Of a DNA stretch of 64,000 nt, positions 9,917 to 47,509 are shown in pieces. The translations under genes were made by a program, and so were the position numbers. Source of the stretch: a virus. Positions within the stretch are counted from its first letter, which is position 1, and each line of letters begins with the position of its first letter. The stretch lies in UHGV virus genome UHGV-1351982, one strand, 5' to 3'. The notes under the pieces are model-generated. The model saw only the letters and a list, made by a program, of their open reading frames with translations. It made no database searches and was not told where the DNA came from.

Positions 9917-12766
9917 TTAAATAGATGCCCAATCCACAGATTGCTCGCCATTATCACCTTCTGCTCTTATACGGAAGCGTAACTTCCTATTAATACCTAG
10001 AGCATCCTCGTTATGAAGAGCATAGTCTGCCTTATTGTATATCAGTAGATAATCGTAGACATACTGATCTTCAATTCGTACACTTCTTAATAAACGATCT
10101 AGGTTATCGTAGATTTCGAGAGTGTAGAAGATTCCATCAATGATATCTTCTTCTGGAATTCTATCCCAGGCCAACTTAACGTCTGGTCCTACAAACTCCG
10201 ATGCATCTCCTGAAGCTGTGTTAGTAACCCTGAAATTACTAACGATGCTTAAGTTTTTAGCAGAGTTAAGTTCTACCGATAATGTTACAGGAGAACTTCG
10301 TCTACCATTAATATCTACAGCTCTAATCTCAAAGACTGCTAAACCAGCAGGTTCTCCAATAATTTCTTGGATCATTCGTAGATTTGGATTAGTTTCTAGT
10401 TGCTGTATGATATAAGGATCAGCATGCCCTGAATGAACGATGGAGTAATAAACAACGTTATTAGTTAAGCTAGGAAGCCAAGATAACTCACCATTCTTAC
10501 CAATAGATCCTACTTGTCCACCCGGTGTTGGTGTGTACATAAAGTCTCTAGGAGGCAGTACGTTATTACTAACATCAGGGATATCGTTACCACTATTATC
10601 AACCTGCTCGGAGTTAATGAATACATCCTCACCATACTCTTGCAGTGTAATATTAATCTTACCTTCTCTAGAGTTTTCAACTTCATCAACTAGGAAGTAT
10701 TTCTTATCCCAACCATAACGACCATATGTAAAAGCAATCGGATCGTTAGGCTCAATGCCTATGAAATGATATGGTAATGAGAATGTGAGAGTTCGTGAGT
10801 AACGAGACTTTTTCAGTTCTCTATCTGCAAAGCTACGTGCAGTATAGTAGTTAGTGATATTTGCAAAAGAAAGCTGAAGTTTTTTATCTAATCCTTTATC
10901 TTGTTCCTTAAATATAGAGTTAAAGAATGTAATGGAGTTAGTTTTCCAGCTTAATGCGGGATCTAATATAGAGGCTTGTACTGAGTTAAACTTATTTCTA
11001 CCAGTAGTATCTGATAGCTCCAGATCACCATAGGTATCTAAGAAGTCAATCTCTAATGGGGTGTTTGAGAACTTCTCAACAGTTATTCTATACTGTCCAG
11101 ATAAGTTGTTGATAGCACCGCCATAAGACTCTATTAATCCCTGCACGTTTTTAAATACTGACTCAGAGGTATCGAGAATAGTATTCATTTGAACTATTTG
11201 TCTATTCTCTCCTACAGCATCAGTCCATCCAACGTATCTCCAGTAGGGTTGCCAAGAAACCTGATAGGATTCATCAATGATATCCAGGATAGCTGCTTCT
11301 TGAATAAGTTGCTGGAGAGGGAACTGATCAATAGTGATATTAGCACCATAGCGATCAGAGGTTAGGTAGTCCAGAGTTTGCCAGATACCATTTAAGCTAG
11401 TCTTGTCAGCAGTTACTCTACCATCTGAATGATAGATCTTAATCTTCTTACCCTGAACTTCAGCACTAACTTCTGGAATTTCTGTTCTGTTTTCATTAAT
11501 AGTAAAGCGAACGATAGCATAAGCAGTATCTAACAGTTTATAACGAGAGTCCCAGTATTCCGGGCCATTCTCATTCATGTTCTGTAAATAGAAACCTTTC
11601 TCTTTTGCAATGTTAACTAGAACATCCGCAGCAGATTGATCTGCTTTACCATGATAAGTCCATATACGGATATCGCCATTACCATCATTATACTTATATT
11701 CCTGTCCATGAACAGAAGGTTCAGAGCTTGGCTGGCCTGAAGCAATACGTTGCATGGTATCACCAGCTACTTTCTTAGTACCAAAGCAAGTACGAGACTT
11801 ACTATCATTAGGATCAATACAGATCATTGGTACATCACCAAAGTAGAAATCTAGGAATCCATCAATCTCACCCTCACAGAAAGCGTATACTACATATACG
11901 ATATTAGGGTTATGCAGTTCAGTATCTGCGAATACTGGGATTCCAGGAATTTTCTGAACTCCGTACACTACTGGCAGGAATTTAGCAGCTAAGTTAAAAT
12001 CAAGATCTACTTCCTTAGTTACAGTCTCATAGTATTTCTTTAGGCTATAGCTTCTAGAAAGACCAAATAACTTTTTCTTAGATTGTAACTTATAACGTTC
12101 TTCCTGAACCTGATACTTAGCAAGAATAGAGATACTCTTGTTAGCGTGGAAGAACCCGTAGTCCTCTTGATATTCAGGTCGCTTAGCACCATTAGACGGA
12201 ACTAATTGTCCGGCAACAATCTCAAGCCCTCTATGGTCAGCATCATCTGTGAAACGTCCATTTACTCTATCAAAGTCATAGAATTGGTTTGAACAGTTCC
12301 ATGTAATAACGGATGTACTAACTCCCGAAGTACCAATGTTATCCTTAATACCACCACCAGTGATTTTACCACGGAAGTAAAGTAAAGGACCATTAGTGTC
12401 TGGATCTACAGGAAGAATGTTACCTTCTTCATCAATAACCGCTTGATGGATTGAGATAGATCTATCTAGGAAGGATACACCATTTTGGACTAGTTTTAAT
12501 ACTTCATCCTCAGCAGTACCTGTGATAGTAAAAGAAAGGCTACCAATGGAAAGTTTTCTATTTTGTTTATGTGTTGTTATAGACTTAACTTTACCGGATG
12601 TGTAAAGAATACCATTATAAATTACATCCCTAAAATAGTCTGTAAGATAAATGTATGCAGAACTTGATCCGGTAGAGCTTGGCAATTCAAGAGTAATAAG
12701 GCATGCAGTTTTTATTTTATTATTAGTTCTTAAATACTCTCTTGCACTGTCAAGAATTTTCTTCAT
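9917..12766 (-). CDS. baseplate hub protein (T5 pb3-like)
   Basis: 949 aa, same length as T5 pb3; synteny between pb4 and pb9. Confidence 0.65.
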   Translation of the reverse strand: MKKILDSAREYLRTNNKIKTACLITLELPSSTGSSSAYIYLTDYFRDVIYNGILYTSGKVKSITTHKQNRKLSIGSLSFTITGTAEDEVLKLVQNGVSFLDRSISIHQAVIDEEGNILPVDPDTNGPLLYFRGKITGGGIKDNIGTSGVSTSVITWNCSNQFYDFDRVNGRFTDDADHRGLEIVAGQLVPSNGAKRPEYQEDYGFFHANKSISILAKYQVQEERYKLQSKKKLFGLSRSYSLKKYYETVTKEVDLDFNLAAKFLPVVYGVQKIPGIPVFADTELHNPNIVYVVYAFCEGEIDGFLDFYFGDVPMICIDPNDSKSRTCFGTKKVAGDTMQRIASGQPSSEPSVHGQEYKYNDGNGDIRIWTYHGKADQSAADVLVNIAKEKGFYLQNMNENGPEYWDSRYKLLDTAYAIVRFTINENRTEIPEVSAEVQGKKIKIYHSDGRVTADKTSLNGIWQTLDYLTSDRYGANITIDQFPLQQLIQEAAILDIIDESYQVSWQPYWRYVGWTDAVGENRQIVQMNTILDTSESVFKNVQGLIESYGGAINNLSGQYRITVEKFSNTPLEIDFLDTYGDLELSDTTGRNKFNSVQASILDPALSWKTNSITFFNSIFKEQDKGLDKKLQLSFANITNYYTARSFADRELKKSRYSRTLTFSLPYHFIGIEPNDPIAFTYGRYGWDKKYFLVDEVENSREGKINITLQEYGEDVFINSEQVDNSGNDIPDVSNNVLPPRDFMYTPTPGGQVGSIGKNGELSWLPSLTNNVVYYSIVHSGHADPYIIQQLETNPNLRMIQEIIGEPAGLAVFEIRAVDINGRRSSPVTLSVELNSAKNLSIVSNFRVTNTASGDASEFVGPDVKLAWDRIPEEDIIDGIFYTLEIYDNLDRLLRSVRIEDQYVYDYLLIYNKADYALHNEDALGINRKLRFRIRAEGDNGEQSVDWASI

Positions 12767-13377
12767 AGACTTTCCCTCAAGGAAAGTGAAATACCAGTAT
12801 ATGTACCATTACTATTTAACGTAGAGCCGAAGCTGTCTCCGTTCATTAATTTAGTTCTAAATAGAATACCATTAAATACCGGTTTCTCACTACCCGTAGT
12901 AGTAATGAATAGATCAGGGTAAACACTTATATTCCAAGTATTTCCTACTGTGTTGATAGAAGTGATTTTGTACACTTTTGGGTGGTTGGACAATTTAAAT
13001 AAATCGCCTGGTTTAGGCAGTCCACGAAGTGTACCTTTAGTGTCCATAATAACTGTTGAACCTTTTTGTCCAGCAGGAATATTTACAGCACTAGTATCAC
13101 CACGAACTCGGAAAGCTTCATATTGTGGTAATAACACATCAATATAGCTACCTGTTCTTTTGTAATCTAGAATGAATGAATCTAATTTAGCAAATTCATC
13201 TGGGAATAATTCTGGATAAGAGATATTAATACCCCAATATTGAGCAGACACCTTAACCTCCCTAACTTTACCATTAGGTAATTCATCACGAATCATAGGG
13301 TCATTGTCTACTAAGTTAACGCTTTCAAAACCTAACCCTGATAGCTCTGGGTTCGTGTATGGGTCTGGTAGTCTCAT
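12763..13377 (-). CDS. distal tail protein (T5 pb9-like, Dit)
   Basis: 204 aa, same as T5 pb9; located between tape measure and hub. Confidence 0.6.
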   Translation of the reverse strand: MRLPDPYTNPELSGLGFESVNLVDNDPMIRDELPNGKVREVKVSAQYWGINISYPELFPDEFAKLDSFILDYKRTGSYIDVLLPQYEAFRVRGDTSAVNIPAGQKGSTVIMDTKGTLRGLPKPGDLFKLSNHPKVYKITSINTVGNTWNISVYPDLFITTTGSEKPVFNGILFRTKLMNGDSFGSTLNSNGTYTGISLSLRESL

Positions 13378-13403
13378 AGTTAATTTCTCCTCTTAATAAC
13401 AAT

Positions 13404-13432
13404 ATTATAATAGGATTGGAAAATTTTATCAA
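13404..13432 (-). promoter_or_regulatory. sigma70-like promoter (TTGATA-N17-TATAAT) upstream of the pb9-like gene
   Basis: Perfect -10 and near-consensus -35 on minus strand, followed by RBS AAGAGGAG and ATG at 13377. Confidence 0.45.
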
Positions 13433-13454
13433 GAAATTTTTATTTTTCCATAAA

Positions 13455-13480
13455 GAAAAGGAGGACATAAAGTCCTCCTC
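13455..13480 (-). terminator. rho-independent terminator after tape measure gene
   Basis: Hairpin GGAGGAC-TTTATG-TCCTCC followed by U-run on minus-strand RNA. Confidence 0.55.
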
Positions 13481-13485
13481 CAGTA

Positions 13486-16400
13486 TTAAGAATTACCAAG
13501 TGATTTCAGGGTGGTTCCATTCTCATTAAGAGCCTGTTCCACGGCATCCCTGAAAGCAGCACTATTGCTCGAAGCAAAATCTCGGAAGCTAGCCGCATCC
13601 ATCGTACTGATGTTCAGCACAATAGGTCTACCCGATGTGCCTTTTGAAGATCCTTTGAGTTCATCAGTAGGGGTAGCCTTCATCGGAACCATAGGAGTGA
13701 TTACTTCGGTACCATGCTCACCCATCTGGTAACTAACTCCAGGATACATATTACCACCTTCTGCACGAGGTACGAAAGAGTTAGCATTACCAATCCCTTG
13801 ATCTCCTCGAATATAAGAAAGTTCACCTGCGTTAGCCGACATAGAAACGTCTACATTCTTCTGGCGCTCTCCAAGAGTTAAGTAACCCGCTGTCTCAGCA
13901 CCAGAGTCTCCAATAGAAGACATACCAGATGCAGAGGATGCTTGAGCAAGAGCCATAGCACCTGCTAAACCAGCCGCAACCATCAGAGGAATAGAGAATG
14001 GATACGGAACAGCTGTTGCTGCTTGCATCACCGCTACTGCCGTCTGGATAATGATTTGCTTCTTAGCTGCATCTTGCTGGATCTTGAGCTTTTCAGCCTC
14101 TAACTTCTTGATCTTAGCTTTGGATTGCTCAGATTTACCATCACGTTTCTGTTCTGCTGCAATAGCTGCATCAATAGCACTTACCTGTTGACCAACACTA
14201 TACTGAATCATTGAAGACACAGTTTGCATACCAGCCGCTACTAGAGAAGTGGTATCCAGAGATCCTTGTGAGAACTGGATCATAGCGTTAGTTAGGTTAC
14301 CCATGCTTTGTGCTACAGCGGTTGCTTCGGAGTTCAGTTCAGACAGCTTAGAAATAGCCTGGTCATAGGACGCCATTCTATTCTGCATATCTGCGAAGTT
14401 TTTATCTTCTCCAGTTAATCCAGTAGTAGGAGTATACGTAGCCCCTACAGCCGCACCTACAGAAGACTGCATTTCTGCATCGCGCTGTACTCTTAAAGCT
14501 GCGAGCTGGGCTCTAGTTTCTGCTAGCTTTTTATTATACTCTAACTGAGCAGCAGCATTCCCTAAAGTTTTTTGCTTAAGGTCTTCGAATAGCTGGATTT
14601 GCTCCTTGATACGTTCCGCAGCTCCCATTAAAGGATTTGCGGTAAATTTCCTTTGTTGCTCCTCTTCCCTGCCAGCAGCCATTTCCCTTTGCTGATCCTG
14701 ACGGAATTTCCAGATTTCACGTTCAATTTGTGCCTGAGCACGTCTTGATTGTTCAGCTTCCTTATGCTTATCAACCTGTTTGGAGTACCATTCATACTTT
14801 TCTTTCTCGACAGTCAGTTCAAGGTTCAACTGAGCTAAACGATATTGAGTATCTGTCATAGTACGGTTATTCAGGAGAGCAATTTCACGATCAACACCAA
14901 GAATCTTATCGGTATAGTCCTTAACCTTCTTCTGGGCTTCCATACCCTGGTTAGTAATCTTGATACGTTCTAACTGAATCTTAGCTATTTCACCTTCGAT
15001 TGCTTTGTTACCTTTGTTAGTTTCTAGGACACGCTTAAGAGCTGCTTCCTGTTCTTCTAACTGTTGAATTTCCAAACGTCTACCAGCTTCCTGTGCTTTC
15101 TCTTTGTCCTTAGTCTGGTTATACACTTCGGCAATCTTCTGCTGAACTTCTAACTGATTCTTAGTCTCATTACCAGTTAATTTTACATAACCAGCAAGAG
15201 CTTGTGAAGCAGTCTTCATCTCACTAAGAGTATTATATCCTAAGTTCAGGCTCTTAACATACTCATCAGCATTTTTACCAGTACCAGCAGAAAGAGACTC
15301 AATAGTCTTAATCGTATCTGATAGGGATGCACTAGTTTTAGCCGCAGTATTAGTATTCTGAGCAATGTTCTGGATATCATTAGCTAAGTCGCTAGCAGTT
15401 TTCTTAGCTTGGTCATACGCTTTCTGCTGTTCTGTCAATCCTTTCAGAGTTGCAGAGTTAAAGTCATAAACCGCATCAGGATCATTCATATCCTTCTGCA
15501 GATTAATCTGCTTCTGAAATTCTGGATTAGCCTTAGCAGCCGCAGCACCCGCAGCTTGATATGCAGATTTCCATGCACCTAAATTATCGGTTGAATCAGT
15601 AACTTCCTTATCCAAACGTTCTACTTGGAGTGCCATAGCCGCAGTTTCAGCTACGAACTTCTTGTTTTCCTCAGAAGCACCAAGAGCCGCAGCACTTACC
15701 GGAACACCCTGAGCCACAGAACGAATTGCACCTGCAGTAAAGAAGTCAGCCTGTTCCATACGCTTGTCTAGATCAGCTTTTAACTTATTACGCTTTTCTA
15801 GAGATTCTTTATACATATCAAGAGCTTTATTATACCCTTCCTCAGAAGCGGAAAGACTTAAAGCTACAGCGCCAACGTTAGTTGGGTCAATCTGACGGTT
15901 AGTTTCTTCCTGTGCTCTAGCAGCAGAAGCTGAGATAGATGCTTGAGAAGTATAGAATACTGCGTTAATAGAATCAATTACCGGACCTAAATACTTAGCA
16001 GCAGCCTGTTGAACCTTTCTCAGTGCAGCATCAGCATTAGCAGCAAACTGTTCCCATGGAGTTGCGCGAAGTACATCATCTAGGTAGCCGAAACGTTTAG
16101 TAGATTCAGCGATTACTGCGTTAGCATATGCTTGTTGCTTCTGGAAAGTAGATAGACTATTAACGTTATATGTAATACCTGTGTTAGCAGCATTTAACTG
16201 TTTAACATAGTCAGCATAAGCATCGTTAAGACGTATAGTAACACCAAGTTCGTCCAGAAGTTCGATTTCTTGTTTAGATACACCCTTGATTACACGGTTA
16301 AGTGCATCAGTCATATCAACACCAAGAACAGCAGCAGCACGACGAGCTACTAGACCAAATTTATTAAGTTGTTCCGCATCGAATCCATATGCAGAAGCAG

Positions 16401-17166
16401 AGGATGCCTGTCTCATTGCTTCTTCGAAGGAGATTGCGTAACCAGCAGCCTCTTGTAGAGATCTAGCTAGAGTTTGTACCGGAGTACCTGTTTGAGTACC
16501 AACAATAGTACCAAACTTCTCAAGACGGTTTAACTGGTCACCCATCTTAAGCTGTTCAAATGCAGATTGTAGAACGAACACGTTAGATGCGATAGCAGCG
16601 TACATAAGAGGTAAACCACCACCCACTTTAGCCATAGCTGCGAAGTCACGAGTAGCACCACGTGCTGAGCCAGAAGTATTACCAATTGCACGACTAGCAC
16701 GTCCTGCAGCGGTAGTTGTATCATTAAAGCCTCTAGCAGTATTACCTAGGGCTCGGTTAGTATCATATAATCTATCTTGAACTTTTTCAGTTGCAGCAGC
16801 TACATCATTACCCATCGCCTTAACAGATTTACCAACATGTGTAAATCCAGACTCTAGCTTCTCAGATACCTCGATCATAGCAAGGGCAAGATCATCTAGC
16901 TTATCACCAATACCCTCAATGGATTTAGTGATACCAGCCATACCTCTGCTAGCCTGCATTTTAGTTAGACTTTTAGCTGCTCTATCCGCCGCCCTCTCAA
17001 TGGAGTAAAGAGTTTTGGGCATTTTTCCTAACTGCTCATTAGTCAGTTCGGAAGCGGCAGCAGCATTTTCTAACGCATCGGAAACGTTCTCAATAGATTT
17101 TGCAGTACGGGTTGCCCCTTTCTGCTTTACATCTATAAGTAGTTCTCGTATTAGCTTATCAGTCAT
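13486..17166 (-). CDS. pb2: tail tape measure protein (T5 pb2-like)
   Basis: 1226 aa, extensive coiled-coil/Ala-Gln-rich sequence, hydrophobic Gly/Ala-rich segment, position in tail module. Confidence 0.85.
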   Translation of the reverse strand: MTDKLIRELLIDVKQKGATRTAKSIENVSDALENAAAASELTNEQLGKMPKTLYSIERAADRAAKSLTKMQASRGMAGITKSIEGIGDKLDDLALAMIEVSEKLESGFTHVGKSVKAMGNDVAAATEKVQDRLYDTNRALGNTARGFNDTTTAAGRASRAIGNTSGSARGATRDFAAMAKVGGGLPLMYAAIASNVFVLQSAFEQLKMGDQLNRLEKFGTIVGTQTGTPVQTLARSLQEAAGYAISFEEAMRQASSASAYGFDAEQLNKFGLVARRAAAVLGVDMTDALNRVIKGVSKQEIELLDELGVTIRLNDAYADYVKQLNAANTGITYNVNSLSTFQKQQAYANAVIAESTKRFGYLDDVLRATPWEQFAANADAALRKVQQAAAKYLGPVIDSINAVFYTSQASISASAARAQEETNRQIDPTNVGAVALSLSASEEGYNKALDMYKESLEKRNKLKADLDKRMEQADFFTAGAIRSVAQGVPVSAAALGASEENKKFVAETAAMALQVERLDKEVTDSTDNLGAWKSAYQAAGAAAAKANPEFQKQINLQKDMNDPDAVYDFNSATLKGLTEQQKAYDQAKKTASDLANDIQNIAQNTNTAAKTSASLSDTIKTIESLSAGTGKNADEYVKSLNLGYNTLSEMKTASQALAGYVKLTGNETKNQLEVQQKIAEVYNQTKDKEKAQEAGRRLEIQQLEEQEAALKRVLETNKGNKAIEGEIAKIQLERIKITNQGMEAQKKVKDYTDKILGVDREIALLNNRTMTDTQYRLAQLNLELTVEKEKYEWYSKQVDKHKEAEQSRRAQAQIEREIWKFRQDQQREMAAGREEEQQRKFTANPLMGAAERIKEQIQLFEDLKQKTLGNAAAQLEYNKKLAETRAQLAALRVQRDAEMQSSVGAAVGATYTPTTGLTGEDKNFADMQNRMASYDQAISKLSELNSEATAVAQSMGNLTNAMIQFSQGSLDTTSLVAAGMQTVSSMIQYSVGQQVSAIDAAIAAEQKRDGKSEQSKAKIKKLEAEKLKIQQDAAKKQIIIQTAVAVMQAATAVPYPFSIPLMVAAGLAGAMALAQASSASGMSSIGDSGAETAGYLTLGERQKNVDVSMSANAGELSYIRGDQGIGNANSFVPRAEGGNMYPGVSYQMGEHGTEVITPMVPMKATPTDELKGSSKGTSGRPIVLNISTMDAASFRDFASSNSAAFRDAVEQALNENGTTLKSLGNS

Positions 17167-17186
17167 TTATTTTTCCCAATAAAAAA

Positions 17187-17211
17187 GGCTCTGGGCAAAT
17201 CACCCAGAGCC
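17187..17211 (-). terminator. hairpin GGCTCTGGG-CAAATCA-CCCAGAGCC in conserved intergenic element upstream of pb2
   Basis: 9-bp stem; same flanking 25-nt sequence CATTTATTTTTCCCAATAAAAAAGG recurs at 22186-22210. Confidence 0.5.
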
Positions 17212-17246
17212 AAGCCTCATCGTGGAACGCCCATTGGAGGAAACTT

Positions 17247-17615
17247 TTACTGAGCTCGAGATCTAGCATGCGGTTTAATGTTCGGAGTACGACCATTAGG
17301 TTTACTATGCTTCTCGGCTCTCTTACGAGCTGCATCTACAGCTTTCGAATCAAATATATTGATTATGTGTAGAACAAACTCTTTCTCTATGGGATCAGTA
17401 ATCCCATAGATATCAAATAAAACACCTAATGCACTTTTGTCTTTTCCTATAAATATAGGAAAATCGCCTGGTATGAAGCAGTCAATAAGACTATTATAAA
17501 TATTCATACTAGTAGATACAATAGGTGGAAAATCTTCGAGTTCAACAGGCATTGCCTTAGGATCAGGTTCAATACCAAGTGACTCACAAAGCATTAAATA
17601 TTGTTGTTTTGTCAT
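17247..17615 (-). CDS. putative tail assembly chaperone (downstream ORF)
   Basis: 122 aa between major tail gene and tape measure; its frame stays open 29 codons upstream of its ATG and overlaps the preceding ORF. Confidence 0.4.
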   Translation of the reverse strand: MTKQQYLMLCESLGIEPDPKAMPVELEDFPPIVSTSMNIYNSLIDCFIPGDFPIFIGKDKSALGVLFDIYGITDPIEKEFVLHIINIFDSKAVDAARKRAEKHSKPNGRTPNIKPHARSRAQ

Positions 17616-17676
17616 TTTAGATGCCGAGGATTTAATGCATTTATCAGCAAAATCGGCAACAGCATCTAGTAACTGC

Positions 17677-18081
17677 TTACGCTTTTGAGCTACGAAAAGT
17701 GTCTAAGTGGAACACTGTCTGGTTGATCCAAGAATCAAACGCAGCAGAGTTCTGCATAAGCATGATAGCGTTATCGCGACTAAATGGAACTTCAGTAGTA
17801 GGATCAGCCTCAGTTTCGATAAGCATCAGCTTCTCAACATCTCCAATCGTCAAGCCAGTCCAGCCAGCAATTGCAGTATCAACGAAAGCTTCAATAAACT
17901 TATCATCATCCTGAACCTGAATCATAGTACCGTTAACCCACTCGTCACGCTTAGCGGAAGAGATAACACGCTTAGACGCAGCACGAGACATGTAGTTCAG
18001 TTGCAGCTTGAAGTTAGGCATACCTGGGTAAGCCAGCTCAATAGTACGAGTTTCAAGGGTAATATCTTTTAAATTGATCAT
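17677..18081 (-). CDS. putative tail assembly chaperone (upstream ORF)
   Basis: 134 aa, acidic; canonical position of siphovirus chaperone gene pair. Confidence 0.45.
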   Translation of the reverse strand: MINLKDITLETRTIELAYPGMPNFKLQLNYMSRAASKRVISSAKRDEWVNGTMIQVQDDDKFIEAFVDTAIAGWTGLTIGDVEKLMLIETEADPTTEVPFSRDNAIMLMQNSAAFDSWINQTVFHLDTFRSSKA

Positions 18082-18977
18082 TTCTTTATTTCTCCAAAGA
18101 AGTCGATTCTTACCGGATCAGAGTCTGCAGTAGGGATTACATCCCATTCAACTCTGTATATATCCGAGAATTGTAGGCGTTTTGTTATACGTGCTGAAGG
18201 AAAATCAATCGAAATATGTTCATTTCGGATGGTTAATGGTATGTCAGTTTCGGGTTCAATATTATAAAACATATCGCCAGCAAATCGCTTGGTGTAGTAA
18301 AATGCAATTGTTGCCGAAGCATTCATTTCATTAACATAAGCTCTCTTATTATTATATATTTTGTTTATGTCAAATACGCTTTTATCTTCTCTCCAAGAAC
18401 ATTGTTGCTGGAATGACATAGAAGCGGATAAAAGAGCCGGTAAAACGTTACTGTTAGTAGATACTCTAGGAGGACTATATGACATAACTTCACCCTGAAC
18501 AATAGAACCAGCAGGAGTAAAAGTAGACACCTCAGAGAACTTACCAGATTCAATTCCTACGTTTAGAATAGGAACGCTTTTATCTAGAGAAAAGTCTACA
18601 GTAGATACATAGCAATTCTCAAAATACACACAGTTATTATCTTTATTAACTATGTATATATTAAACATTGTTGGCTCAATATTTGTACTATAAAGTGGTA
18701 GTAGGAATGTGTTACCCTCTCGGTCAAAGCCCATCCATTCAAAGAAGTTAGCTTCAGTAAGGGTATTACTAAAATTTATAGCCAGCGATATTGAAGATGG
18801 AGTTTGTGCATTAATAATAGAGTCAGCATAGTTGGTTCTACGATGTATAGTCCTACGAAGAGTTTTAAATTCCTCATAGGACGTATTGATATCGTAATTT
18901 GACAGGGCATCAAAATGATAAGCCCTGCCATCGTACTCAACTATAACTTTTGACTCCCTCATTAGAGAGTAGTACAT
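18078..18977 (-). CDS. minor tail protein (T5 p140-like)
   Basis: 299 aa immediately downstream of major tail tube gene; assignment by synteny only. Confidence 0.4.
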   Translation of the reverse strand: MYYSLMRESKVIVEYDGRAYHFDALSNYDINTSYEEFKTLRRTIHRRTNYADSIINAQTPSSISLAINFSNTLTEANFFEWMGFDREGNTFLLPLYSTNIEPTMFNIYIVNKDNNCVYFENCYVSTVDFSLDKSVPILNVGIESGKFSEVSTFTPAGSIVQGEVMSYSPPRVSTNSNVLPALLSASMSFQQQCSWREDKSVFDINKIYNNKRAYVNEMNASATIAFYYTKRFAGDMFYNIEPETDIPLTIRNEHISIDFPSARITKRLQFSDIYRVEWDVIPTADSDPVRIDFFGEIKK

Positions 18978-18981
18978 TTAA

Positions 18982-20391
18982 TTAGCCACCAGAAGCAGTA
19001 ACTGTAATGCTCTTAGTACCTTCTACACCAGAACCATCTTTAGCTACAGCTTTCACAGTAACTGCACCAGTCTTAGAAGCATCAGCGGTTAGTAACCCAG
19101 AAGTTGCATCAATAGTGGCAGCAGTACCAGAGGAAATAGACCAAGTTACTTCCTTATTAGTAGCTTCAGCAGGTAAAACATCTACAGTCATCTGAAGAGT
19201 TGCACTATTCTTGACGGAAGTTGCATCACCCGCAGATTTAACAGTAATACCTGTTACTTTTACTGGAGCTGCTTTACCACCGTCACCAGTTGCAATCAGA
19301 TTTGCAATAGTAGCTTTGGTGTACTTATTAGAGAAACCAAGATAACCTTCATCACCAGTATCCAGATCAGTAGGAATTGCTTTGAACTCTACAGAAGTAC
19401 CAAGTACATCGTCAGTCTCAATAGTTGGGATGTTTACGTGGGCTTGCTTAGCAACCAGAACAGCAGCAGGGCGCTCATCATCATATTCACCCCCAAGTAC
19501 TAGAGCGATTTCGAAACGGTTAACTACTTTCAGGGTCTTAATTAGATCTTTGTACAGATCCATAGAACCTAGAGCTTTATCGTTAAGATAAGCAGTTAGA
19601 GAACCAGTTAGTTCGAATGCACCAGTAAATGAACCGATTGGGATGTTAACACGGGACATAACGTTCGGAGTCAGGTAGGTGATGTTGTTGTTGATTGTAA
19701 AACTACCACCAGTGATCGGAATGTCATATGCCTTACCAGTATCCATATCCTTAATTTTGAGGATAGTCAGTTTGTTCTTGATATAAGAACCCTGGATAGT
19801 CATGTAAGTTTCATCATCAATACCTACAGTATCAGGATCAAATGGAGCAGCATCCAGAGGGATCAGCTGGTTACCATTACCTGACCAAGTTACACGACCG
19901 ATATCTTCGATATCAACGTTTACTTCAGCCTGGTTGATCTGGCAGGAATCGATGTAGCTCCATGCTTTATCAGTAAGGATGTAAATATGTAGCATTGCCA
20001 GTTCGTGGTATGCGTTATCCTTAAAGTTAACCATGAAGTTAGTTTCGTTAGTGTGTGCACCTGTATCACCATCTAGGTTGATAGGCTTACCACTAGAAAG
20101 AGCATGCCACAGCATGTAGTCCGGAACGATCTGCTTACTCGTAGTCTTGTCTAAGTAAGGCAGGATGTAAGTAGAGAAACTCCACTCAGCTGCGTTCAGG
20201 GAGTCGTTGAAACGTTTTGAACCACGAGTTGGACGCGGACCAGCTTCGTTAACAGTAATATCGGTTGAGTTACTGTCCTGACCCCAAGAAATATCATCTT
20301 GAACTAGAATCTCTTGCGTGTTTTCTTTGGTGTGACCAGACTTAACCGTAGACACGAAGATTCGAGTATTACGTAATAGTTGTAAAGACAT
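18982..20391 (-). CDS. pb6: major tail tube protein with C-terminal Ig-like (Big_2-like) domain (T5 pb6-like)
   Basis: 469 aa; C-terminal VTGITVKSAGDATSVKNSATLQMTVDVLPAEATNKEVTWSISSG.. is Ig-like; synteny. Confidence 0.75.
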   Translation of the reverse strand: MSLQLLRNTRIFVSTVKSGHTKENTQEILVQDDISWGQDSNSTDITVNEAGPRPTRGSKRFNDSLNAAEWSFSTYILPYLDKTTSKQIVPDYMLWHALSSGKPINLDGDTGAHTNETNFMVNFKDNAYHELAMLHIYILTDKAWSYIDSCQINQAEVNVDIEDIGRVTWSGNGNQLIPLDAAPFDPDTVGIDDETYMTIQGSYIKNKLTILKIKDMDTGKAYDIPITGGSFTINNNITYLTPNVMSRVNIPIGSFTGAFELTGSLTAYLNDKALGSMDLYKDLIKTLKVVNRFEIALVLGGEYDDERPAAVLVAKQAHVNIPTIETDDVLGTSVEFKAIPTDLDTGDEGYLGFSNKYTKATIANLIATGDGGKAAPVKVTGITVKSAGDATSVKNSATLQMTVDVLPAEATNKEVTWSISSGTAATIDATSGLLTADASKTGAVTVKAVAKDGSGVEGTKSITVTASGG

Positions 20392-20417
20392 TTATATATA
20401 TTCTCCTAATCTGTAAC

Positions 20418-20903
20418 TTATCTGCGTAATGCACGCTTAGGTGGCATATAACGCACTGTTACATTTATTTCCGCTAAACCATATGGGGCCAGTAGACCTT
20501 CATCTGTAGCTACTGAGGTGATGTTCATATCAGTTGCCTCACATGGGAAGGTCGATCCATTAGGTTTACTAACAGTATATTCTAAATTTCCACCTGTGTC
20601 AATGACGGTTTTTATGTCAGCTACGAGTTTTTCAAGTTGCTCTTGAATATCTGTTTTCTCTTTGTCATACACGAGGATTGGAAGTTCTAAAAACATCCAC
20701 TGTTGGCCTGAAGGAAGATACTGCCCAGTTTCAGTTCCGATATGGACTGCCACATAAGGAAATTCTCGGATTTCCTCAAATTTATAAGTTTGACGAGAAA
20801 CGTTTCCATAAAGGTTATTGAAATACTCGTCAGGTTGTGAACCATCCATTTGTGTGGCGATTCGGTCAACCACTGCTTGTGCAATACTTGTTCTGTGATC
20901 CAT
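20418..20903 (-). CDS. putative tail terminator/completion protein
   Basis: 161 aa directly upstream of major tail tube gene. Confidence 0.4.
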   Translation of the reverse strand: MDHRTSIAQAVVDRIATQMDGSQPDEYFNNLYGNVSRQTYKFEEIREFPYVAVHIGTETGQYLPSGQQWMFLELPILVYDKEKTDIQEQLEKLVADIKTVIDTGGNLEYTVSKPNGSTFPCEATDMNITSVATDEGLLAPYGLAEINVTVRYMPPKRALRR

Positions 20904-20906
20904 TTA

Positions 20907-21674
20907 TTAGGTTCCTTGATTAACCTTGATTTTATATCTAGAATGAATCAGGTCTCTTGCAGCTTTTGCGATTGCTTCCCCAATAAGTTTTTGAGGGTTT
21001 CGAGCGCCAGGGTAAGGTCGTAGAGAAAGTCTTCGATATGTAGAAACTGCGGGGTTGAACACAGAATAAGGACGAACCATATAATTATACGTCACATTCA
21101 GCTCTGGAGCACCTTTACTAGTTTCTGCATCACGTAGCATAACGTCTTTAATCTTTAAGGAGTTAGCAAAGCGACCAGTTCTGAACTTCAATGGTGCTCC
21201 TGCTTTTTTCATATCCTTGATTAAGTATTCCTTAGCTACTATCTCAAGAATAGCACGCATGTTACTATTCGATACGAAACGACCGGAAGCACCTGTTACT
21301 GCACCAGAATAGCCATCTTCAGTATCTCTAGGATCTCCAAAGTTTACCTGAACTCTACCGGTAGAACGTTTTTTACCAACAGCAGAACGTTTACCTGCGG
21401 TTGCTTGAATTAGATTCTCTAGAGCACCTAAATCACCAGAAAGATCTAAGTTAGAAGAGACGGCCTTCAATATAGATGCTGTCCTAACATTTAATAAGTC
21501 TTGAGATACTGGTTTTGAGAATTTGAAAGATACCTGTGCAACTGTACCATCTCTTGTAGGATCTTTCAAACCTGTCTCAACTGTATACACAACAGTATTC
21601 TTATTATTCTCAGATCGTCCTGCAGTATCTAGCTGCTCTTTAATAATTTGTCTAGCTAGATCAGAAAGAGCCAT
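20907..21674 (-). CDS. putative neck/tail completion protein
   Basis: 255 aa in head-tail joining region. Confidence 0.4.
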   Translation of the reverse strand: MALSDLARQIIKEQLDTAGRSENNKNTVVYTVETGLKDPTRDGTVAQVSFKFSKPVSQDLLNVRTASILKAVSSNLDLSGDLGALENLIQATAGKRSAVGKKRSTGRVQVNFGDPRDTEDGYSGAVTGASGRFVSNSNMRAILEIVAKEYLIKDMKKAGAPLKFRTGRFANSLKIKDVMLRDAETSKGAPELNVTYNYMVRPYSVFNPAVSTYRRLSLRPYPGARNPQKLIGEAIAKAARDLIHSRYKIKVNQGT

Positions 21675-22186
21675 TACACTCTCCTATAGACTTCGATGAT
21701 TGTACGAATATGCTCTGGAATACCAGACTTAGTATTGTTAAACGTAACTGTCTCACCACCAATAGTCTTGGCTTGACGATAATCTTGCTTATGCCAGTGA
21801 TCTACTAACAGACATGCTGCCAGTTTAAGATCTTCAGGCATTGGATTGAAACCACCTTGAGTATACTCTACATCCATGTATCCTTCAGGAGGATTAAACT
21901 TAAGGAGAATAACACCATCAGGATACAGTTTAAACTGTTCCGGGTCTATTTCATTCTCGTTAATAGTCATCTTTGTAATAGATGTGGCTGAGGGAGAACT
22001 CAGAAAATATTTTCTGCGAGTAGGTTTTGTGTTGATTAGCTGATCTATCGCATCCGCATCATCCATACCTAAAAGGCTAGTAATCAGCGTATTGGCAGCC
22101 TTAATCATCATGTCTACTCCAGATTCGATTTCAGGTCGTTTTAGGCTACCGTATAGTCTATAATCTTCAGCTGTGATGATTTGCAT
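21674..22186 (-). CDS. putative head completion/connector protein
   Basis: 170 aa directly downstream of major capsid gene. Confidence 0.4.
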   Translation of the reverse strand: MQIITAEDYRLYGSLKRPEIESGVDMMIKAANTLITSLLGMDDADAIDQLINTKPTRRKYFLSSPSATSITKMTINENEIDPEQFKLYPDGVILLKFNPPEGYMDVEYTQGGFNPMPEDLKLAACLLVDHWHKQDYRQAKTIGGETVTFNNTKSGIPEHIRTIIEVYRRV

Positions 22187-22206
22187 TTATTTTTCCCAAT
22201 AAAAAA

Positions 22207-22224
22207 GGAGAGCCGAAGCTCTCC
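22207..22224 (-). terminator. rho-independent terminator after major capsid gene (GGAGAGC-CGAA-GCTCTCC plus U-run)
   Basis: 7-bp GC stem followed by TTTTTTATTGGG on minus-strand RNA; plausible attenuation after a highly expressed gene. Confidence 0.6.
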
Positions 22225-22245
22225 TTATCGGCTGAAAAGCCTGTA

Positions 22246-23619
22246 TTAAGCAGCGTAAGCACCAGATACAACGCCGTTTTCGAAGTAACGTTGCAGGTTA
22301 ACACGCTGAGTAACGTAGTATGCGTCACGCTGTTTTCCAGCTTGGCGCTCACGTTCAACAGTAACAGCACGCTGACGCGGCATTACGAAGTTATCTTTGT
22401 AAACAATAACTGCGAATTCAGCGGAAGCAGCTTTAGCTGGGAAGTACTCAGAAACTACAACCGGTAGACCGTAAATACGACCAACCTGACCCTGCAGTTT
22501 AACAGCATCATTACCAACCTGGGCAACATCCTGCCATTCTTCATCTTCCAGCAGATCGTAGTAAGCATCCATAGATACGATCAGTACCAGTTTACTCAGT
22601 TTCAAACCATGACGGCCCAGTTTACGACGCAGCTTGGAGATAGTCTTAGCAGTTACCAGAACAGAACCGTCAGCTTTAGCTTCGGTAACAACCTTAGCAC
22701 CATCATCAGCAGCCAGTTTCAGCAGACCCTTAGGCTGACCAGTACCATTACCAGACATGAAAGCTTCTTCGATAGAAACAGCGTGTGCTTCGATCAGACG
22801 CTTACGCAGCAGAGGCAGCAGGGAGAAGATTGCATCTTCTTCAGTTTCATCAGTGATGAAGGATTTAGCAGCCAGCTTGTAAGTTTTGAAGCTGATTTCA
22901 GTCAGTTGACCTTTAACTTCGTCACCAACAGTTTCGTCAGTACCGAATTTGGAAGCGTCTACCCAAGTAGCACGACCAGCTTCTGGTTCAACGAGCATAG
23001 TAAGAATTTTGCTGGACATTGGCAGTTCATCGAACAGTGCACCAACTACCAGTTCCTTCTGCAGGTCACGGATAATACGGGTAGAGAAGATAGTTTCGTA
23101 TGCTTCGCTAGACATGGAAACGGAAGAAGAACCGTTAACAGCTTTAACGTGAGCCTTACCATGTTCAGTTTCGAATACGTCCTTCTCCATCATATAAGAC
23201 AGAAGAACCAGTTTCTCAACTTCATCCTCGAAAGCATCCTGAGTGCCATAAAGAGCTTTAGCTACGCTATCACCAACGAAGGAACGACCTTCACGAGCTG
23301 CCAACAGAGACTTGATTTCGTCCTGAAGACCAACGATGGTTTCCTGTTGCTTTTCTACAGTCTGTGCAAACAATTCTGCGCTCTTCTTAGACTTCTCGTC
23401 CAGGTTCTTAACCAGATCCAGAGCTTCTTCCAGACGCTTACGGTCTTCACCAACAGCTTTAGATACTAGGTCGTTCATACGAGCCAGTTCTTTTTCTTCC
23501 TGCTCTTCACGCAGACGCTTAGCTTCCGCAGCTTTCTGAGCAGCAGTCAGACCTTCCAGAGATTTAGCCAGATCACCCAGACCAAGTTCTTCCTTCAGCT
23601 TATTAATATCAATAGTCAT
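22246..23619 (-). CDS. pb8: major capsid protein precursor (T5 pb8-like)
   Basis: 457 aa; N-terminal coiled-coil delta domain (KLKEELGLGDLAKSLEGL..) followed by capsid body; downstream of protease. Confidence 0.85.
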   Translation of the reverse strand: MTIDINKLKEELGLGDLAKSLEGLTAAQKAAEAKRLREEQEEKELARMNDLVSKAVGEDRKRLEEALDLVKNLDEKSKKSAELFAQTVEKQQETIVGLQDEIKSLLAAREGRSFVGDSVAKALYGTQDAFEDEVEKLVLLSYMMEKDVFETEHGKAHVKAVNGSSSVSMSSEAYETIFSTRIIRDLQKELVVGALFDELPMSSKILTMLVEPEAGRATWVDASKFGTDETVGDEVKGQLTEISFKTYKLAAKSFITDETEEDAIFSLLPLLRKRLIEAHAVSIEEAFMSGNGTGQPKGLLKLAADDGAKVVTEAKADGSVLVTAKTISKLRRKLGRHGLKLSKLVLIVSMDAYYDLLEDEEWQDVAQVGNDAVKLQGQVGRIYGLPVVVSEYFPAKAASAEFAVIVYKDNFVMPRQRAVTVERERQAGKQRDAYYVTQRVNLQRYFENGVVSGAYAA

Positions 23620-40586: not shown

Positions 40587-40690
40587 GAATAATCTGTTGA
40601 TAAGTCTGTGGATAACGCCTCAAAATCGCTAGGATTTTGTCAAGTCAAATCGTGCTGTTAATAAACCTGTGGATAACTTAAATAACAGTG
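40567..40690. repeat. right (inverted) copy of the about 120-bp repeat with LexA box (40567-40586) and two DnaA boxes TGTGGATAA (40607-40615, 40668-40676)
   Basis: Reverse complement aligns with 37100-37222. Confidence 0.6.
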
Positions 40691-40708
40691 TTTCTCACTT
40701 CGCTTTGT

Positions 40709-40852
40709 AAATGCGAGTCATTCTCATTATCATTCGCGTTTCCCTTCCTAAATGCAAATCATTCTCATTCGTATTCCGGTAGTCAAATGATAACTATTCT
40801 CATTCGCATTCAACTTCTCAAATGCGAATCAATCTCATTATCATTCGCATTT
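40709..40852. repeat. four tandem copies of a palindromic unit (AATGCGA..TTCTCATT..CATTCGC)
   Basis: Units at about 40709, 40750, 40785 and 40820; last unit has perfect 10-bp arms AAATGCGAAT/ATTCGCATTT. Confidence 0.6.
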
Positions 40853-40889
40853 CGGCAGGCAGGGCATTTTCTATTTGCCCTGCGCTTTT

Positions 40890-41489
40890 GTGCAAATCCG
40901 ACATTTGCCCCCACGGATTACGTGCCAGCGTGTATGTGCGAATCCGACAATTTTTGGTAGTGTGCAAATCCGACCCGAAATATTTTTATAGTGTGCGAAT
41001 CCGACAATGAATTTCCCTAAAAACTCCAGCAATCTCGAACTGCGATCGAATCCTGTGGGATATGCGCAAATCCGACATGAGTTTGCTAGGAGACAGATTT
41101 ATGGTTTCAGGAATATTTTTGTGACTTCGATGAGAGGGTGTGTAATTGTGTGAGTTTGGGGAGAAGTGCGAATCCGATGAGGTTTTGGGAGGAACTATGA
41201 GAGGAGCAGCGGTGTTGGTGCTTTAGCACCGATTTGCTGCGTTTTTGGGGATAATGTGAGATGTTTTGGGATAATTGGGCGTGGGGTGAGATAAAGTGAA
41301 ATTTTATTAGTTAAATGGGGCAAAATCGCTTGACAAGTGAAAATTCCTGTGTCCCTAAAAACTCAGGCAATCATGGGCCTTCGGCCCGAAATAATGCTGC
41401 TATTTTCAGGAGATTATGTGCTCATGAAAACTTAGGCAATTGTGCAAATCCGACCAGTTTTTAAACTTATATCAGTGTGCAAATCCGAT
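40890..41489. repeat. iteron-like array: 8 direct copies of GTGC(A/G)AATCCGA(C/T), all in one orientation, irregular spacing
   Basis: Copies at 40890, 40936, 40962, 40993, 41064 (variant GCGCAAATCCGAC), 41166, 41442, 41477. Confidence 0.7.
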
Positions 41490-42025
41490 AGCAATTTCCA
41501 GAAATGTGTTTTCAAAAAATGTTGTCTAGAAATAACCGCCCTCCCCATAACCGCCCTGTATTAACCGCCTATTGCTGGAGTTTCTAGGAACATGAAAACC
41601 GCCTGAGTTAATGGGAGTTTTCCTAGAAACTTAGGAGTCTAGAAGAAAGTGTTGTGCCATCCTAGCAGATGAGCGGCAACAGGTGTATCATCTTGAACGT
41701 TAATTTATCTATTTAACAGTATTAGTTTTTATATAAGTATAAGATCCCCAAGGGTTCTCATATAGAGCTTTGCCCCCGCCAGAAGGTCTCGTGATGTTTC
41801 TAGTAATCTTTATTAAATTACTTGTTGACTTGTCCTGTCGCTCCGTAACCTACGCTACAAGTCAGTAATTTAAGATTCCTGAACCACCACACCTTCTGTG
41901 TGGCAACTCTAAATGGTTAATTCTATTAACTCATAGAGTTATGATAACATACATTTAGCTATCTGTCAACGAGAGTTTGTATCTGAGTCTCGGTACAGGT
42001 ATTGTGCACCGAGACATGCAGGATC

Positions 42026-47178: not shown

Positions 47179-47429
47179 TATTTCTTACCTTTCAGTTGCT
47201 TAACTTCACGCTCAAAGGATGCTGCACGACGTTCGGCAGTTGCCTGATGCTCTTTCGCAAAACGTGCTTCCTGTTTTGTTAGGTTGAATGCCATAGCATT
47301 CTTGTTCAGAGAATCATACATTTTTTTCATTGCCGGAATAGACATCTTCATGAGCTGACCTTCAAAACCCTGCATATCGAGGAGAATTGCCAGAACGTTA
47401 GCCATTTCAGTTTTAGTCATGTTTTCCAT
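47178..47429 (-). CDS. hypothetical protein (83 aa)
   Basis: ORF directly downstream of promoter 47464-47492. Confidence 0.4.
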   Translation of the reverse strand: MENMTKTEMANVLAILLDMQGFEGQLMKMSIPAMKKMYDSLNKNAMAFNLTKQEARFAKEHQATAERRAASFEREVKQLKGKK

Positions 47430-47463
47430 TAGAATTTCCTCTCTCTCATTAATTTATGAACTT

Positions 47464-47492: not shown

Positions 47493-47509
47493 CTGAATTT
47501 TTTATTTAC

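What the first reader, a model, noticed from the sequence alone, without database searches (positions are those of the whole stretch)
17163..22224. Conserved 25-nt element with hairpin directly in front of two late genes
CATTTATTTTTCCCAATAAAAAAGG occurs identically at 17163-17187 and 22186-22210, each time running straight into the start codon of a late gene (tape measure; connector-like gene) and followed by a strong GC hairpin. On the minus-strand RNA this reads hairpin, U-run, then GGGAAAAAUAAAUG, so a terminator and a translation initiation region are fused, suggesting attenuated read-through or translational coupling at defined points of the late operon.
Basis: seen in the sequence. Interest (0 to 1): 0.35.

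Follow-up and report, generated by a model that had tools for sequence, protein, structure and literature searches.

The report
Leaky terminators fused to ribosome sites
In this T5-like phage, two ordinary transcription terminators in the late operon run straight into the ribosome-binding sites of two low-copy virion genes; the layout very probably throttles those genes and is shared by the whole phage family.

Summary
The repeat is real. CATTTATTTTTCCCAATAAAAAAGG occurs exactly twice, at 17164-17188 and 22184-22208, 1-2 nt off the stated coordinates. None is expected by chance.

The window is a T5-like phage (Demerecviridae, Epseptimavirus) with its late genes on the minus strand. Each copy there reads: 3' end of a GC hairpin, UUUUUUAUU, weak Shine-Dalgarno GGGA, 7 nt, AUG. 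One follows the major capsid gene and starts the head-tail adaptor gene. The other follows the tail-assembly-chaperone gene and starts the tape-measure gene.

Both hairpin-plus-T-run elements sit at the same two junctions throughout the family. That is 68 of 74 and 51 of 51 related loci, with many different but always complementary stems. Several GenBank records already annotate them as terminators.

Only about 20 nt lie between terminator and start codon, with no promoter. These essential low-copy genes therefore need read-through, so the terminators must be leaky. Classical translational coupling is not supported.

The exact 25-nt identity is lineage-specific. Most Tequintavirus-like relatives carry 2 extra nt at the tape-measure site, and tails in other genera share only the generic form.

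Verdict: an ordinary, already annotated kind of element. No transcript data exist.

The parts
17164..17188 (-). 25-nt repeat, copy 1. Minus strand reads CC (last 2 nt of the hairpin), UUUUUUAUU (17186-17178), SD-like GGGA (17177-17174), AAAAUAA, then AUG (17166-17164) of the tape-measure gene.
17187..17211 (-). Terminator hairpin of site 1: GGCUCUGGGUG-AUU-UGCCCAGAGCC, 11 bp, -19.1 kcal/mol.
   Evidence: Covariation: 8 of 10 pairs show compensatory changes and none is broken in 14 lineages.
17212..17246 (-). Conserved non-coding block between the chaperone stop codon and the site 1 hairpin. It includes UUUCCUCC (17243-17236) and GGGCGUUCCACGAUGAGG. Its function is unknown; it may pair with the tape-measure SD.
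22184..22208 (-). 25-nt repeat, copy 2. Same sequence: U-run 22206-22198, GGGA 22197-22194, AUG 22186-22184 of the head-tail adaptor gene.
22205..22226 (-). Terminator hairpin of site 2: AAGGAGAGC-UUCG-GCUCUCCUU. The core GGAGAGCUUCGGCUCUCC spans 22224-22207.
   Evidence: The core is identical in six enterobacterial genera and replaced by other complementary stems in Vibrio and metagenomic relatives.
22230..22241 (-). Small accessory hairpin GGCU-UUUC-AGCC between the capsid-gene stop codon and the terminator. The structure is kept with changed sequence in relatives (GGC..GCC, GGCA..UGCC).
22246..23619 (-). Major capsid protein gene (T5 pb8 homologue), upstream of site 2.
21674..22186 (-). Head-tail adaptor gene (T5 p144 homologue), which starts inside copy 2.
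17247..17615 (-). Tail assembly chaperone ORF (the T part of a G/GT-like pair, together with 17677-18081), upstream of site 1.
13486..17166 (-). Tape measure / pore-forming tail tip protein gene (T5 pb2 homologue), which starts inside copy 1.
13437..13481 (-). Third late-operon terminator, after the tape-measure gene: hairpin 13481-13457 with a degenerate copy of the tail (UUUUCUUUAUGGAAAAAUAAAAA, 19/25). No start codon follows it.
13404..13432 (-). Sigma-70 promoter TTGATA-17-TATAAT, homologous to the annotated T5 promoter P-G25. It restarts transcription for the distal tail protein gene (12763-13377).
20574..20602 (-). Sigma-70 promoter TTGACA-17-TATACT, homologous to the annotated T5 promoter P-J5. 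It feeds the tail tube-to-chaperone unit that ends at site 1.

Best explanation
**What the elements are.** The two copies are the 3' tails of two Rho-independent terminators in the late (minus-strand) operon of a T5-like phage. Each tail doubles as the translation initiation region of the next gene.

**How they most likely work.** RNA polymerase coming from the major capsid gene (site 2), or from the tail-tube/chaperone unit driven by the P-J5-like promoter (site 1), meets a GC hairpin followed by UUUUUUAUU. Most transcripts end there. That yields abundant, 3'-hairpin-protected mRNA for proteins needed in large amounts: the capsid protein at 775 copies per virion, the tail tube protein at 120, and the chaperones.

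A minority of polymerases read through. Only those longer transcripts carry the adaptor gene (12 copies per virion) or the tape-measure gene, whose product fills the tail tube lumen. The tape-measure protein is a trimer from my own knowledge; I did not check that in a paper.

On read-through RNA, the weak SD GGGA lies 7 nt from the AUG, in an A/U-rich context directly after the U-run. The U-run may also serve as a ribosomal protein S1 landing site. Translation would start independently of the upstream gene.

A third terminator closes the tape-measure gene, and the P-G25-like promoter then restarts transcription.

**Shown versus inferred.** Shown here: the anatomy, the family-wide conservation of position and structure, and the absence of an intervening promoter. 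Inferred: actual termination, its efficiency, and the S1 role of the U-run.

**Why the tails are identical.** The 23-25 nt identity reflects two slowly evolving tails under the same double constraint. The last step to 25/25, a 2-nt loss before the ATG at site 1, is specific to this Epseptimavirus-like lineage. Gene conversion is possible but not demonstrated.
For: **Anatomy**
- Hairpins of -19.1 and -12 to -17 kcal/mol are followed by 8 U in 9 nt on the gene strand only. The intergenic folds have z-scores of -3.7 and -3.4.
- These two and the terminator after the tape-measure gene are the three strongest canonical terminators in the late region.

**Gene identities:**

**Family-wide conservation**
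- Eight annotated genera from T5 to Vibrio phages show hairpin plus T-run plus SD plus ATG at both junctions.
- Among 78 IMG/VR loci found with a capsid profile, 68 of 74 have a terminator within 130 nt of the capsid-gene stop codon. Of the six misses, two fell just outside my scan criteria, three carry an inserted gene with the terminator after it, and one had a mis-called stop.
- 45 of 51 loci have a terminator 60 nt or less before the tape-measure start. The other 6 have it further upstream with an extra ORF in between.
- There are 16 and 20 distinct hairpin sequences at the two junctions, with the outer 6-7 pairs complementary.
- RNAalifold on 14 lineages finds 8 of 10 pairs with double compensatory changes and none broken.

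**Selection and prior annotation**
- Within 27-28 Markadamsvirinae genomes the intergenic modules are more conserved (0.93-0.99 column identity) than the flanking coding DNA (0.76-0.93).
- Independent annotators mark the homologous elements as terminator and RBS in the Shiner, PR1, AKFV33, HASG4 and EASG3 records.

**Read-through is required**
- No promoter-like site lies between terminator and start codon.
- The T5 record places promoters only at the P-J5 and P-G25 equivalents, both conserved in the window.

**Stoichiometry:** 775 capsid, 12 adaptor and 40x3 tube subunits (PMC11313276).
Against: - There is no experimental 3'-end or read-through measurement for any T5-like phage in the searched literature.
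- By canonical rules both terminators look strong. How enough read-through is achieved, by intrinsic leakiness or by phage modification of RNA polymerase, is unknown.
- The dual-constraint argument does not fully explain two things: the 46-nt site 2 module is 100% identical in Providencia phage PR1, whose adaptor protein is only 30% identical, and a similar tail follows the third terminator without any start codon.
- The hairpin sets were selected by folding energy, so their pairing is partly by construction.
Confidence: 0.8

Rival explanations
1. The hairpin-plus-tail is a specific recognition module for a phage- or host-encoded factor, such as an antiterminator, a translational repressor or an RNA chaperone. 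The exact sequence, not just its generic form, would then be what is selected.
For: - The site 2 module (46 nt) is 100% identical between this phage and Providencia phage PR1, although the capsid proteins are 57% and the adaptor proteins 30% identical.
- The hairpin core GGAGAGCUUCGGCUCUCC is unchanged in six enterobacterial genera.
- All three late terminators carry a related tail, including one with no start codon behind it.
- The intergenic modules are more conserved than the coding flanks.
Against: - In Vibrio and metagenomic relatives both hairpin and tail differ in sequence while keeping only the generic form.
- Within-genome similarity of the two tails is barely greater than between genomes: 6.5 against 7.2 edits, p=0.04, or p=0.15 without the close genera.
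- No further copies exist in the genome and there is no Rfam match.
- The only 'antitermination protein Q-like' label in a relative is a 61-aa zinc-ribbon protein that stays below all Pfam thresholds.
Confidence: 0.1
2. The hairpins are mainly RNA processing or stability elements, not sites where polymerase stops. They would act as protective 3' stem-loops after endonucleolytic cleavage, as at the RNase III sites of T7.
For: - The hairpins would stabilise upstream mRNA whichever mechanism creates the 3' end.
- A second small conserved hairpin precedes each terminator.
Against: - A T-run of 5-7 directly follows the stem in every lineage. Four T columns are invariant in the 14-lineage alignment. 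Processing sites have no need for that.
- Stems of 9-11 bp are, from my general knowledge and not tested here, shorter than typical RNase III substrates.
- The hairpins plus U-run occur on the gene strand only.
Confidence: 0.05
3. The identity is a DNA-level phenomenon. The junction sequences would act as recombination linkers or insertion hot spots at module boundaries, or were homogenised by gene conversion, with no special regulatory meaning beyond an ordinary terminator.
For: - Mobile or extra genes sit exactly at these junctions in relatives. In T5 an ORF with CapR and zinc-finger domains is inserted right after TTTTTTATT at site 1.
- Inserted genes directly follow the capsid stop codon in L081, L090 and L117.
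- In Vibrio phage VCPH a protein with a T5orf172 domain follows the capsid terminator.
- The PR1 module is identical despite diverged flanks.
- Site 1 differs from site 2 by a 2-nt indel in most Tequintavirus-like genomes but is identical in this lineage.
Against: - Compensatory changes show selection on RNA structure.
- From my general knowledge, 23-46 nt is at the lower limit for homologous exchange.
- The family-wide test gives little support for concerted evolution.
- This rival explains the identity, not the function, so it is compatible with the main explanation.
Confidence: 0.15
4. The A-rich half of the element (GGGAAAAATAAA) is a promoter UP element or part of a late promoter.
For: The related tail at site 3 lies immediately upstream of the -35 box of the P-G25-like promoter, in UP-element position.
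Against: - At sites 1 and 2 the element abuts the ATG.
- No acceptable -35/-10 pair follows within the first 70 nt of either gene.
- The T5 record annotates no promoter there.
Confidence: 0.03

Closest known systems
Predicted Rho-independent terminators of T5-like phages, as annotated in the GenBank records of AKFV33, HASG4, EASG3, Providencia phage PR1 and Klebsiella phage Shiner
   Same: These are the homologous elements at the same two junctions, with 86-100% identical sequence for AKFV33, HASG4, EASG3 and PR1. Shiner additionally annotates the RBS directly behind each terminator.
   Different: Those annotations are software predictions. None of the sources I saw remarks that the two tails are identical or that the downstream genes depend on read-through.
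Phage T7 terminator T-phi after the major capsid gene 10
   Same: It is a leaky intrinsic-type terminator placed directly after the capsid gene, so downstream low-copy virion genes are transcribed by read-through only. The abstract of PMC9157156 says the native T7 hairpin 'is adapted to be inefficient'. The rest is general knowledge.
   Different: T7 uses its own RNA polymerase, whereas T5-like phages use host sigma-70 polymerase (PMC7472727). The sequences are not homologous. Here the U-run is fused to the next gene's SD.
Phage lambda G/GT-H (chaperone then tape measure) gene order
   Same: The gene order is the same: a frameshifted chaperone pair followed by the tape-measure gene. phrog_313 spans both chaperone ORFs.
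   Different: From my own knowledge, lambda has no terminator between T and H. In Demerecviridae a terminator and a conserved 35-nt block are placed between them.
T5 promoters P-J5 and P-G25, and the strong RBS behind P-G25
   Same: Both are conserved in the window at 20602-20574 and 13432-13404. Together with the terminators they define the late transcription units.
   Different: They are promoters, not part of the repeat. The RBS behind P-G25 (AAGAGGAG) is strong, whereas the repeat carries a weak GGGA.

Membership tests
Rho-independent (intrinsic) terminator | G+C-rich stem-loop on the transcribed strand | tested here: met
   11-bp (-19.1 kcal/mol) and 9-bp (UUCG loop) stems on the minus strand.
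Rho-independent (intrinsic) terminator | U-run directly 3' of the stem | tested here: met
   UUUUUUAUU starts at the last stem pair at both sites. The T columns are invariant across 14 lineages.
Rho-independent (intrinsic) terminator | Structure, rather than sequence, maintained in evolution | tested here: met
   8 of 10 pairs have compensatory changes and none is broken. There are 16 and 20 distinct complementary hairpins at conserved positions.
Rho-independent (intrinsic) terminator | Transcript 3' ends in the U-run; termination by RNA polymerase alone | not testable with these tools
   No transcript data are available, and no 3'-end mapping for T5-like phages was found.
Shine-Dalgarno translation initiation region | Purine-rich SD complementary to the 16S 3' end, 5-10 nt upstream of a start codon that opens a conserved gene | tested here: met
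   GGGA lies 7 nt before the ATG of the tape-measure and adaptor genes. It is a weak match of 3-4 pairs. Relatives have GGAG, GAGG or AGGA in the same place.
Classical translational coupling (stop/start overlap or near-abutment) | Upstream stop codon within a few nt of the downstream start | tested here: not met
   The spacers are 59 and 80 nt and contain a stable hairpin.
Sigma-70 promoter | -35 and -10 hexamers with 16-18 nt spacing downstream of, or within, the element | tested here: not met
   There are none at sites 1 and 2. The criterion is met only behind the third terminator, at the P-G25 homologue.
Dispersed repeat or mobile element | Many copies per genome, or copies outside one functional context | tested here: not met
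   A whole related genome has two exact copies and one degenerate copy, all behind late terminators. No contig has more than 2 exact copies.
Any curated RNA family (Rfam 15) | Covariance-model score at or above the gathering threshold | tested here: not met
   Only sub-threshold chance hits were found in 13300-23000.
Processive antitermination site (lambda nut / Q-qut type) | A cognate antiterminator protein plus its recognition site near a promoter | tested here: inconclusive
   The only candidate, labelled 'antitermination protein Q-like' (phrog_6060, 61 aa) in a relative, is a zinc-ribbon protein below Pfam thresholds. I did not search for a recognition site.

The most novel reading that the evidence does not exclude
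The chaperone-to-tape-measure spacer may be more than a terminator.

**Observations.** A UUUCCUCC (anti-SD-like) block is conserved across the family and always lies 0-13 nt after the chaperone stop codon. By my estimate that is within the footprint of a terminating ribosome. It is predicted to pair across the terminator hairpin with the tape-measure SD.

**Model.** Tape-measure translation would be throttled and released only while ribosomes are finishing the chaperone on the same mRNA. That would be long-range, structure-mediated coupling of a sticky protein to its chaperone.

**Consequence.** The same 25-nt initiation region would then be open at the adaptor gene and closed at the tape-measure gene. 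The predicted SD pairing probability is 0.10 against 0.80.

**Alternative.** The terminated 3' UTR could itself be a stable small RNA with an anti-SD seed.
Probability: 0.15. Interest if true: 0.55.

Novelty: already known. Interest (0 to 1): 0.22.

Why it matters
**Expression design.** The elements explain how a T5-like phage using only host RNA polymerase can set very different expression levels along one late operon. The capsid protein is present at 775 copies per virion against 12 for the adaptor. The tube protein is present at 120 copies, while the tape measure only fills the tube lumen.

The design is: terminate after the abundant gene, let a trickle through for the rare one, then restart with a strong promoter.

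**Practical use.** For phage engineers the practical lesson is that these junctions are regulatory and should be preserved. The adaptor and tape-measure genes have no promoter of their own. In relatives, the same junctions are also where extra genes have been inserted.

**Novelty.** The principle and the elements themselves are already known or annotated, so the finding adds detail rather than a new concept.

Tried and rejected
- **Looser copies.** I searched the window and a complete related genome and found only the degenerate third copy behind the tape-measure terminator.
- **Rfam scan of 13300-23000.** It gave nothing above threshold.
- **Promoter reading.** No -35/-10 pair follows the element at sites 1 and 2.
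- **Coding reading of the conserved block.**
  - The overlapping ORF 17159-17335 lies in another frame and runs through the hairpin.
  - Indels between genera break the frame, so I rejected this without a formal test.
- **Concerted evolution of the two tails across genera.** A permutation test gave weak support at best (p=0.04, or 0.15 without the close genera).
- **Alternative pairing of the block as an antiterminator.** Duplex z-scores against the hairpin arms were inconsistent between lineages, so I did not pursue it.
- **MAFFT plus RNAalifold on the site 2 hairpins.**
  - Stems of different length were misregistered and no pairs were predicted.
  - I replaced this with a position-anchored pair count.
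- **Q-type antiterminator annotated in a relative.** Pfam does not support it.
- **T5 nick sites as an explanation.** The BF23 paper gave no motif to test.
- **Nakayama 1994 paper on BF23 late genes (PMC197117).** It is not held in the library.
- **Transcriptome or 3'-end data for T5-like phages.** None was found.


Full report
**Observation**

The 25-mer CATTTATTTTTCCCAATAAAAAAGG is present exactly twice, at 17164-17188 and 22184-22208. No other match has 3 or fewer mismatches, and shuffles give none.

On the minus strand the repeat reads CC-UUUUUUAUU-GGGA-AAAAUAA-AUG. The CC closes a GC hairpin:
- Site 1: 17211-17187, 11 bp, -19.1 kcal/mol.
- Site 2: 22226-22205, 9 bp with a UUCG loop.

The AUG opens a gene at each site: 13486-17166 at site 1 and 21674-22186 at site 2.

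**Context**

The window is 98% identical to Salmonella Epseptimavirus phages, which are T5-like phages of the family Demerecviridae. PHROG matches and relatives' annotations identify the genes:
- 22246-23619: major capsid protein.
- 21674-22186: head-tail adaptor (T5 p144).
- 17677-18081 and 17247-17615: the tail assembly chaperone pair.
- 13486-17166: tape measure (T5 pb2).
- 12763-13377: distal tail protein.

Site 2 is therefore the capsid-to-adaptor junction, with a 59-nt spacer. Site 1 is the chaperone-to-tape-measure junction, with an 80-nt spacer.

A third strong terminator (13481-13457) follows the tape-measure gene. Behind it lies a sigma-70 promoter (13432-13404) homologous to the annotated T5 promoter P-G25. 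The annotated T5 promoter P-J5 is conserved at 20602-20574, upstream of the tail tube gene. These three are the strongest canonical terminators in the late region.

**Comparative evidence**

I fetched annotated regions from T5, Klebsiella phage Shiner, Pectobacterium My1, Proteus RP7, Providencia PR1 and four Vibrio phages. I also fetched 78 IMG/VR loci with a capsid-protein profile, reaching down to 43% capsid identity.

- Every lineage has a GC hairpin plus T-run shortly after the capsid stop codon, and another before the tape-measure gene. Each is followed within about 10-30 nt by an SD and a start codon.
- At the capsid junction 68 of 74 loci scored positive. Of the six misses, two fell just outside my scan criteria, three carry a gene inserted directly after the capsid stop codon with the terminator behind it, and one had a mis-called stop.
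- At the tape-measure junction 45 of 51 loci have the terminator 60 nt or less upstream. The other six have it further upstream with an extra ORF in between.
- The stems differ widely, with 16 and 20 distinct hairpins, but stay complementary. RNAalifold on 14 lineages finds 8 of 10 pairs with double compensatory changes and none broken.
- Within 27-28 Markadamsvirinae genomes the intergenic modules are more conserved (0.93-0.99) than the flanking coding DNA (0.76-0.93).
- The homologous elements are already annotated as 'terminator' in the records of AKFV33, HASG4, EASG3, PR1 and Shiner. Shiner also annotates the RBS directly behind them.

**Mechanism**

Only about 20 nt separate each hairpin from the start codon, and there is no promoter-like site. 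The adaptor and tape-measure genes can therefore be transcribed only by polymerases that read through. Both proteins are essential virion parts, so the terminators must be leaky or be overridden.

The placement matches stoichiometry: 775 capsid subunits against 12 adaptors, and 120 tube subunits against the tape measure that fills the tube lumen (PMC11313276).

The SD is weak (GGGA, 7-nt spacing) in an A/U-rich setting. The U-run directly upstream may also help ribosome binding; that is my inference from general knowledge.

Classical translational coupling is excluded by the spacer lengths and the hairpin.

T5 late genes are transcribed by host sigma-70 polymerase (PMC7472727). I found no published 3'-end mapping, so termination itself is inferred.

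**Why are the tails identical?**

- In an unbiased sample, the site 2 tail is nearly invariant in Markadamsvirinae. Site 1 reads ...GGGAAAAATAAA-AC/AT-ATG in most Tequintavirus-like genomes.
- Exact identity that includes the ATG is limited to the Epseptimavirus-like subset, roughly 200 of 555 GenBank records.
- In other genera the two tails share only the generic form: a T-run, A/T, an SD, an A/T-rich spacer and ATG.
- Within-genome similarity is barely above between-genome similarity: 6.5 against 7.2 edits, p=0.04, or p=0.15 without the close genera.
- The identity is therefore best seen as two slowly evolving tails under the same double constraint. Lineage-specific homogenisation is possible.

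Two facts remain only partly explained:
- The 46-nt site 2 module is 100% identical in Providencia phage PR1, although the adaptor proteins are only 30% identical.
- A 19/25 copy of the tail follows the third terminator, where it sits in UP-element position of the P-G25-like promoter rather than before a start codon.

**Extra element at site 1**

Between the chaperone stop codon and the hairpin lies a 35-nt block (17246-17212) that is conserved across genera. Indels break any reading frame there.

Its UUUCCUCC motif always lies 0-13 nt after the stop codon. In most lineages the minimum-energy fold pairs this block, or a nearby UUCC, with the tape-measure SD across the terminator hairpin.

The predicted probability that the SD is paired is 0.80 at site 1 and 0.10 at site 2, despite the identical 25-mer. 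Across 14 lineages it ranges from 0.60 to 0.92, with a mean z of +1.0 against shuffled blocks. This is suggestive, not demonstrated. It is the basis of the 'novel case'.

**Verdict**

This is a real and well-conserved but ordinary regulatory architecture: leaky intrinsic terminators fused to weak translation initiation regions. It is already annotated in relatives. The exact 25-nt identity is a lineage detail.

Noticed in passing
window 17677-18081 and 17247-17615 (minus); overlap zone about 17680-17702: The two tail-assembly-chaperone ORFs match the N- and C-terminal halves of one PHROG profile (phrog_313, positions 12-141 and 170-255). The second frame is open back across the first ORF's stop codon, in the +1/-2 frame. 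This looks like a G/GT-type programmed frameshift near ...ACTTTTCGTAGCTCAAAAGCGTAA.
   Followed up: partly
window 17212-17246 (minus): A non-coding block (UUUCCUCC...GGGCGUUCCACGA..GAGG) lies between the chaperone stop codon and the terminator. It is conserved from Salmonella to Vibrio phages, is more conserved than the flanking genes, and is predicted to sequester the tape-measure SD.
   Followed up: partly
window 13377-13459 (minus): Behind the tape-measure terminator lies the homologue of T5 promoter P-G25, followed by the strong RBS ATTAAGAGGAGAAATTAACTATG. From memory this closely resembles the RBS of pQE-type expression vectors.
   Followed up: partly
L028 (T5 AY692264) 18396-19205; L087 14398-14460: In T5 itself an extra ORF (T5p137, with a CapR homology domain and a treble-clef zinc finger) is inserted exactly after TTTTTTATT of the site 1 tail, splitting terminator from tape-measure RBS. 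Its annotated TTG start upstream of the hairpin is probably too early, because an ATG 250-aa ORF starts after the U-run.
   Followed up: partly
L081, L090, L117 (just after the capsid stop codon); L034 13384-13974; L031 and L032 about 18420-19220: Extra genes occupy the same two junctions in other relatives. There are inserted ORFs starting ATGGCTGGAAAAGCAATACC after the capsid gene, and a T5orf172-domain protein in Vibrio phage VCPH. Vibrio phages also have a roughly 250-aa ORF without Pfam match between the chaperone terminator and the tape-measure gene.
   Followed up: partly
window 47400-63900: A family of 5-6 repeats of about 30-75 nt (TCAATTTATA..TATTATA on the + strand) matches the classic T5 early-promoter form when read on the minus strand. 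They are interspersed with tRNA-like repeats at 60642-63438.
   Followed up: no
window 40690-41490: A cluster of direct repeats (three copies of 51 nt at 40692-40853 and several GTGCAAATCCGA-containing units at 40946-41488) lies in what appears to be a non-coding stretch. It may be the repeat-rich region described at the first-step/second-step transfer border of T5-like genomes.
   Followed up: no
L145 37376-37561 (NC_111488): A 61-aa protein annotated 'antitermination protein Q' (phrog_6060) is a CXXC zinc-ribbon protein. Its only Pfam matches are sub-threshold (DnaJ central domain, Anti-TRAP), so the name is unsupported.
   Followed up: yes
hit H113, PQ773600.1: A 41-kb record named Corynebacterium phage CPphiVTCCBPA_418 contains a 100% identical copy of the T5-like site 2 module, with two places in the record. 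This suggests contamination or misassembly with a T5-like phage.
   Followed up: no
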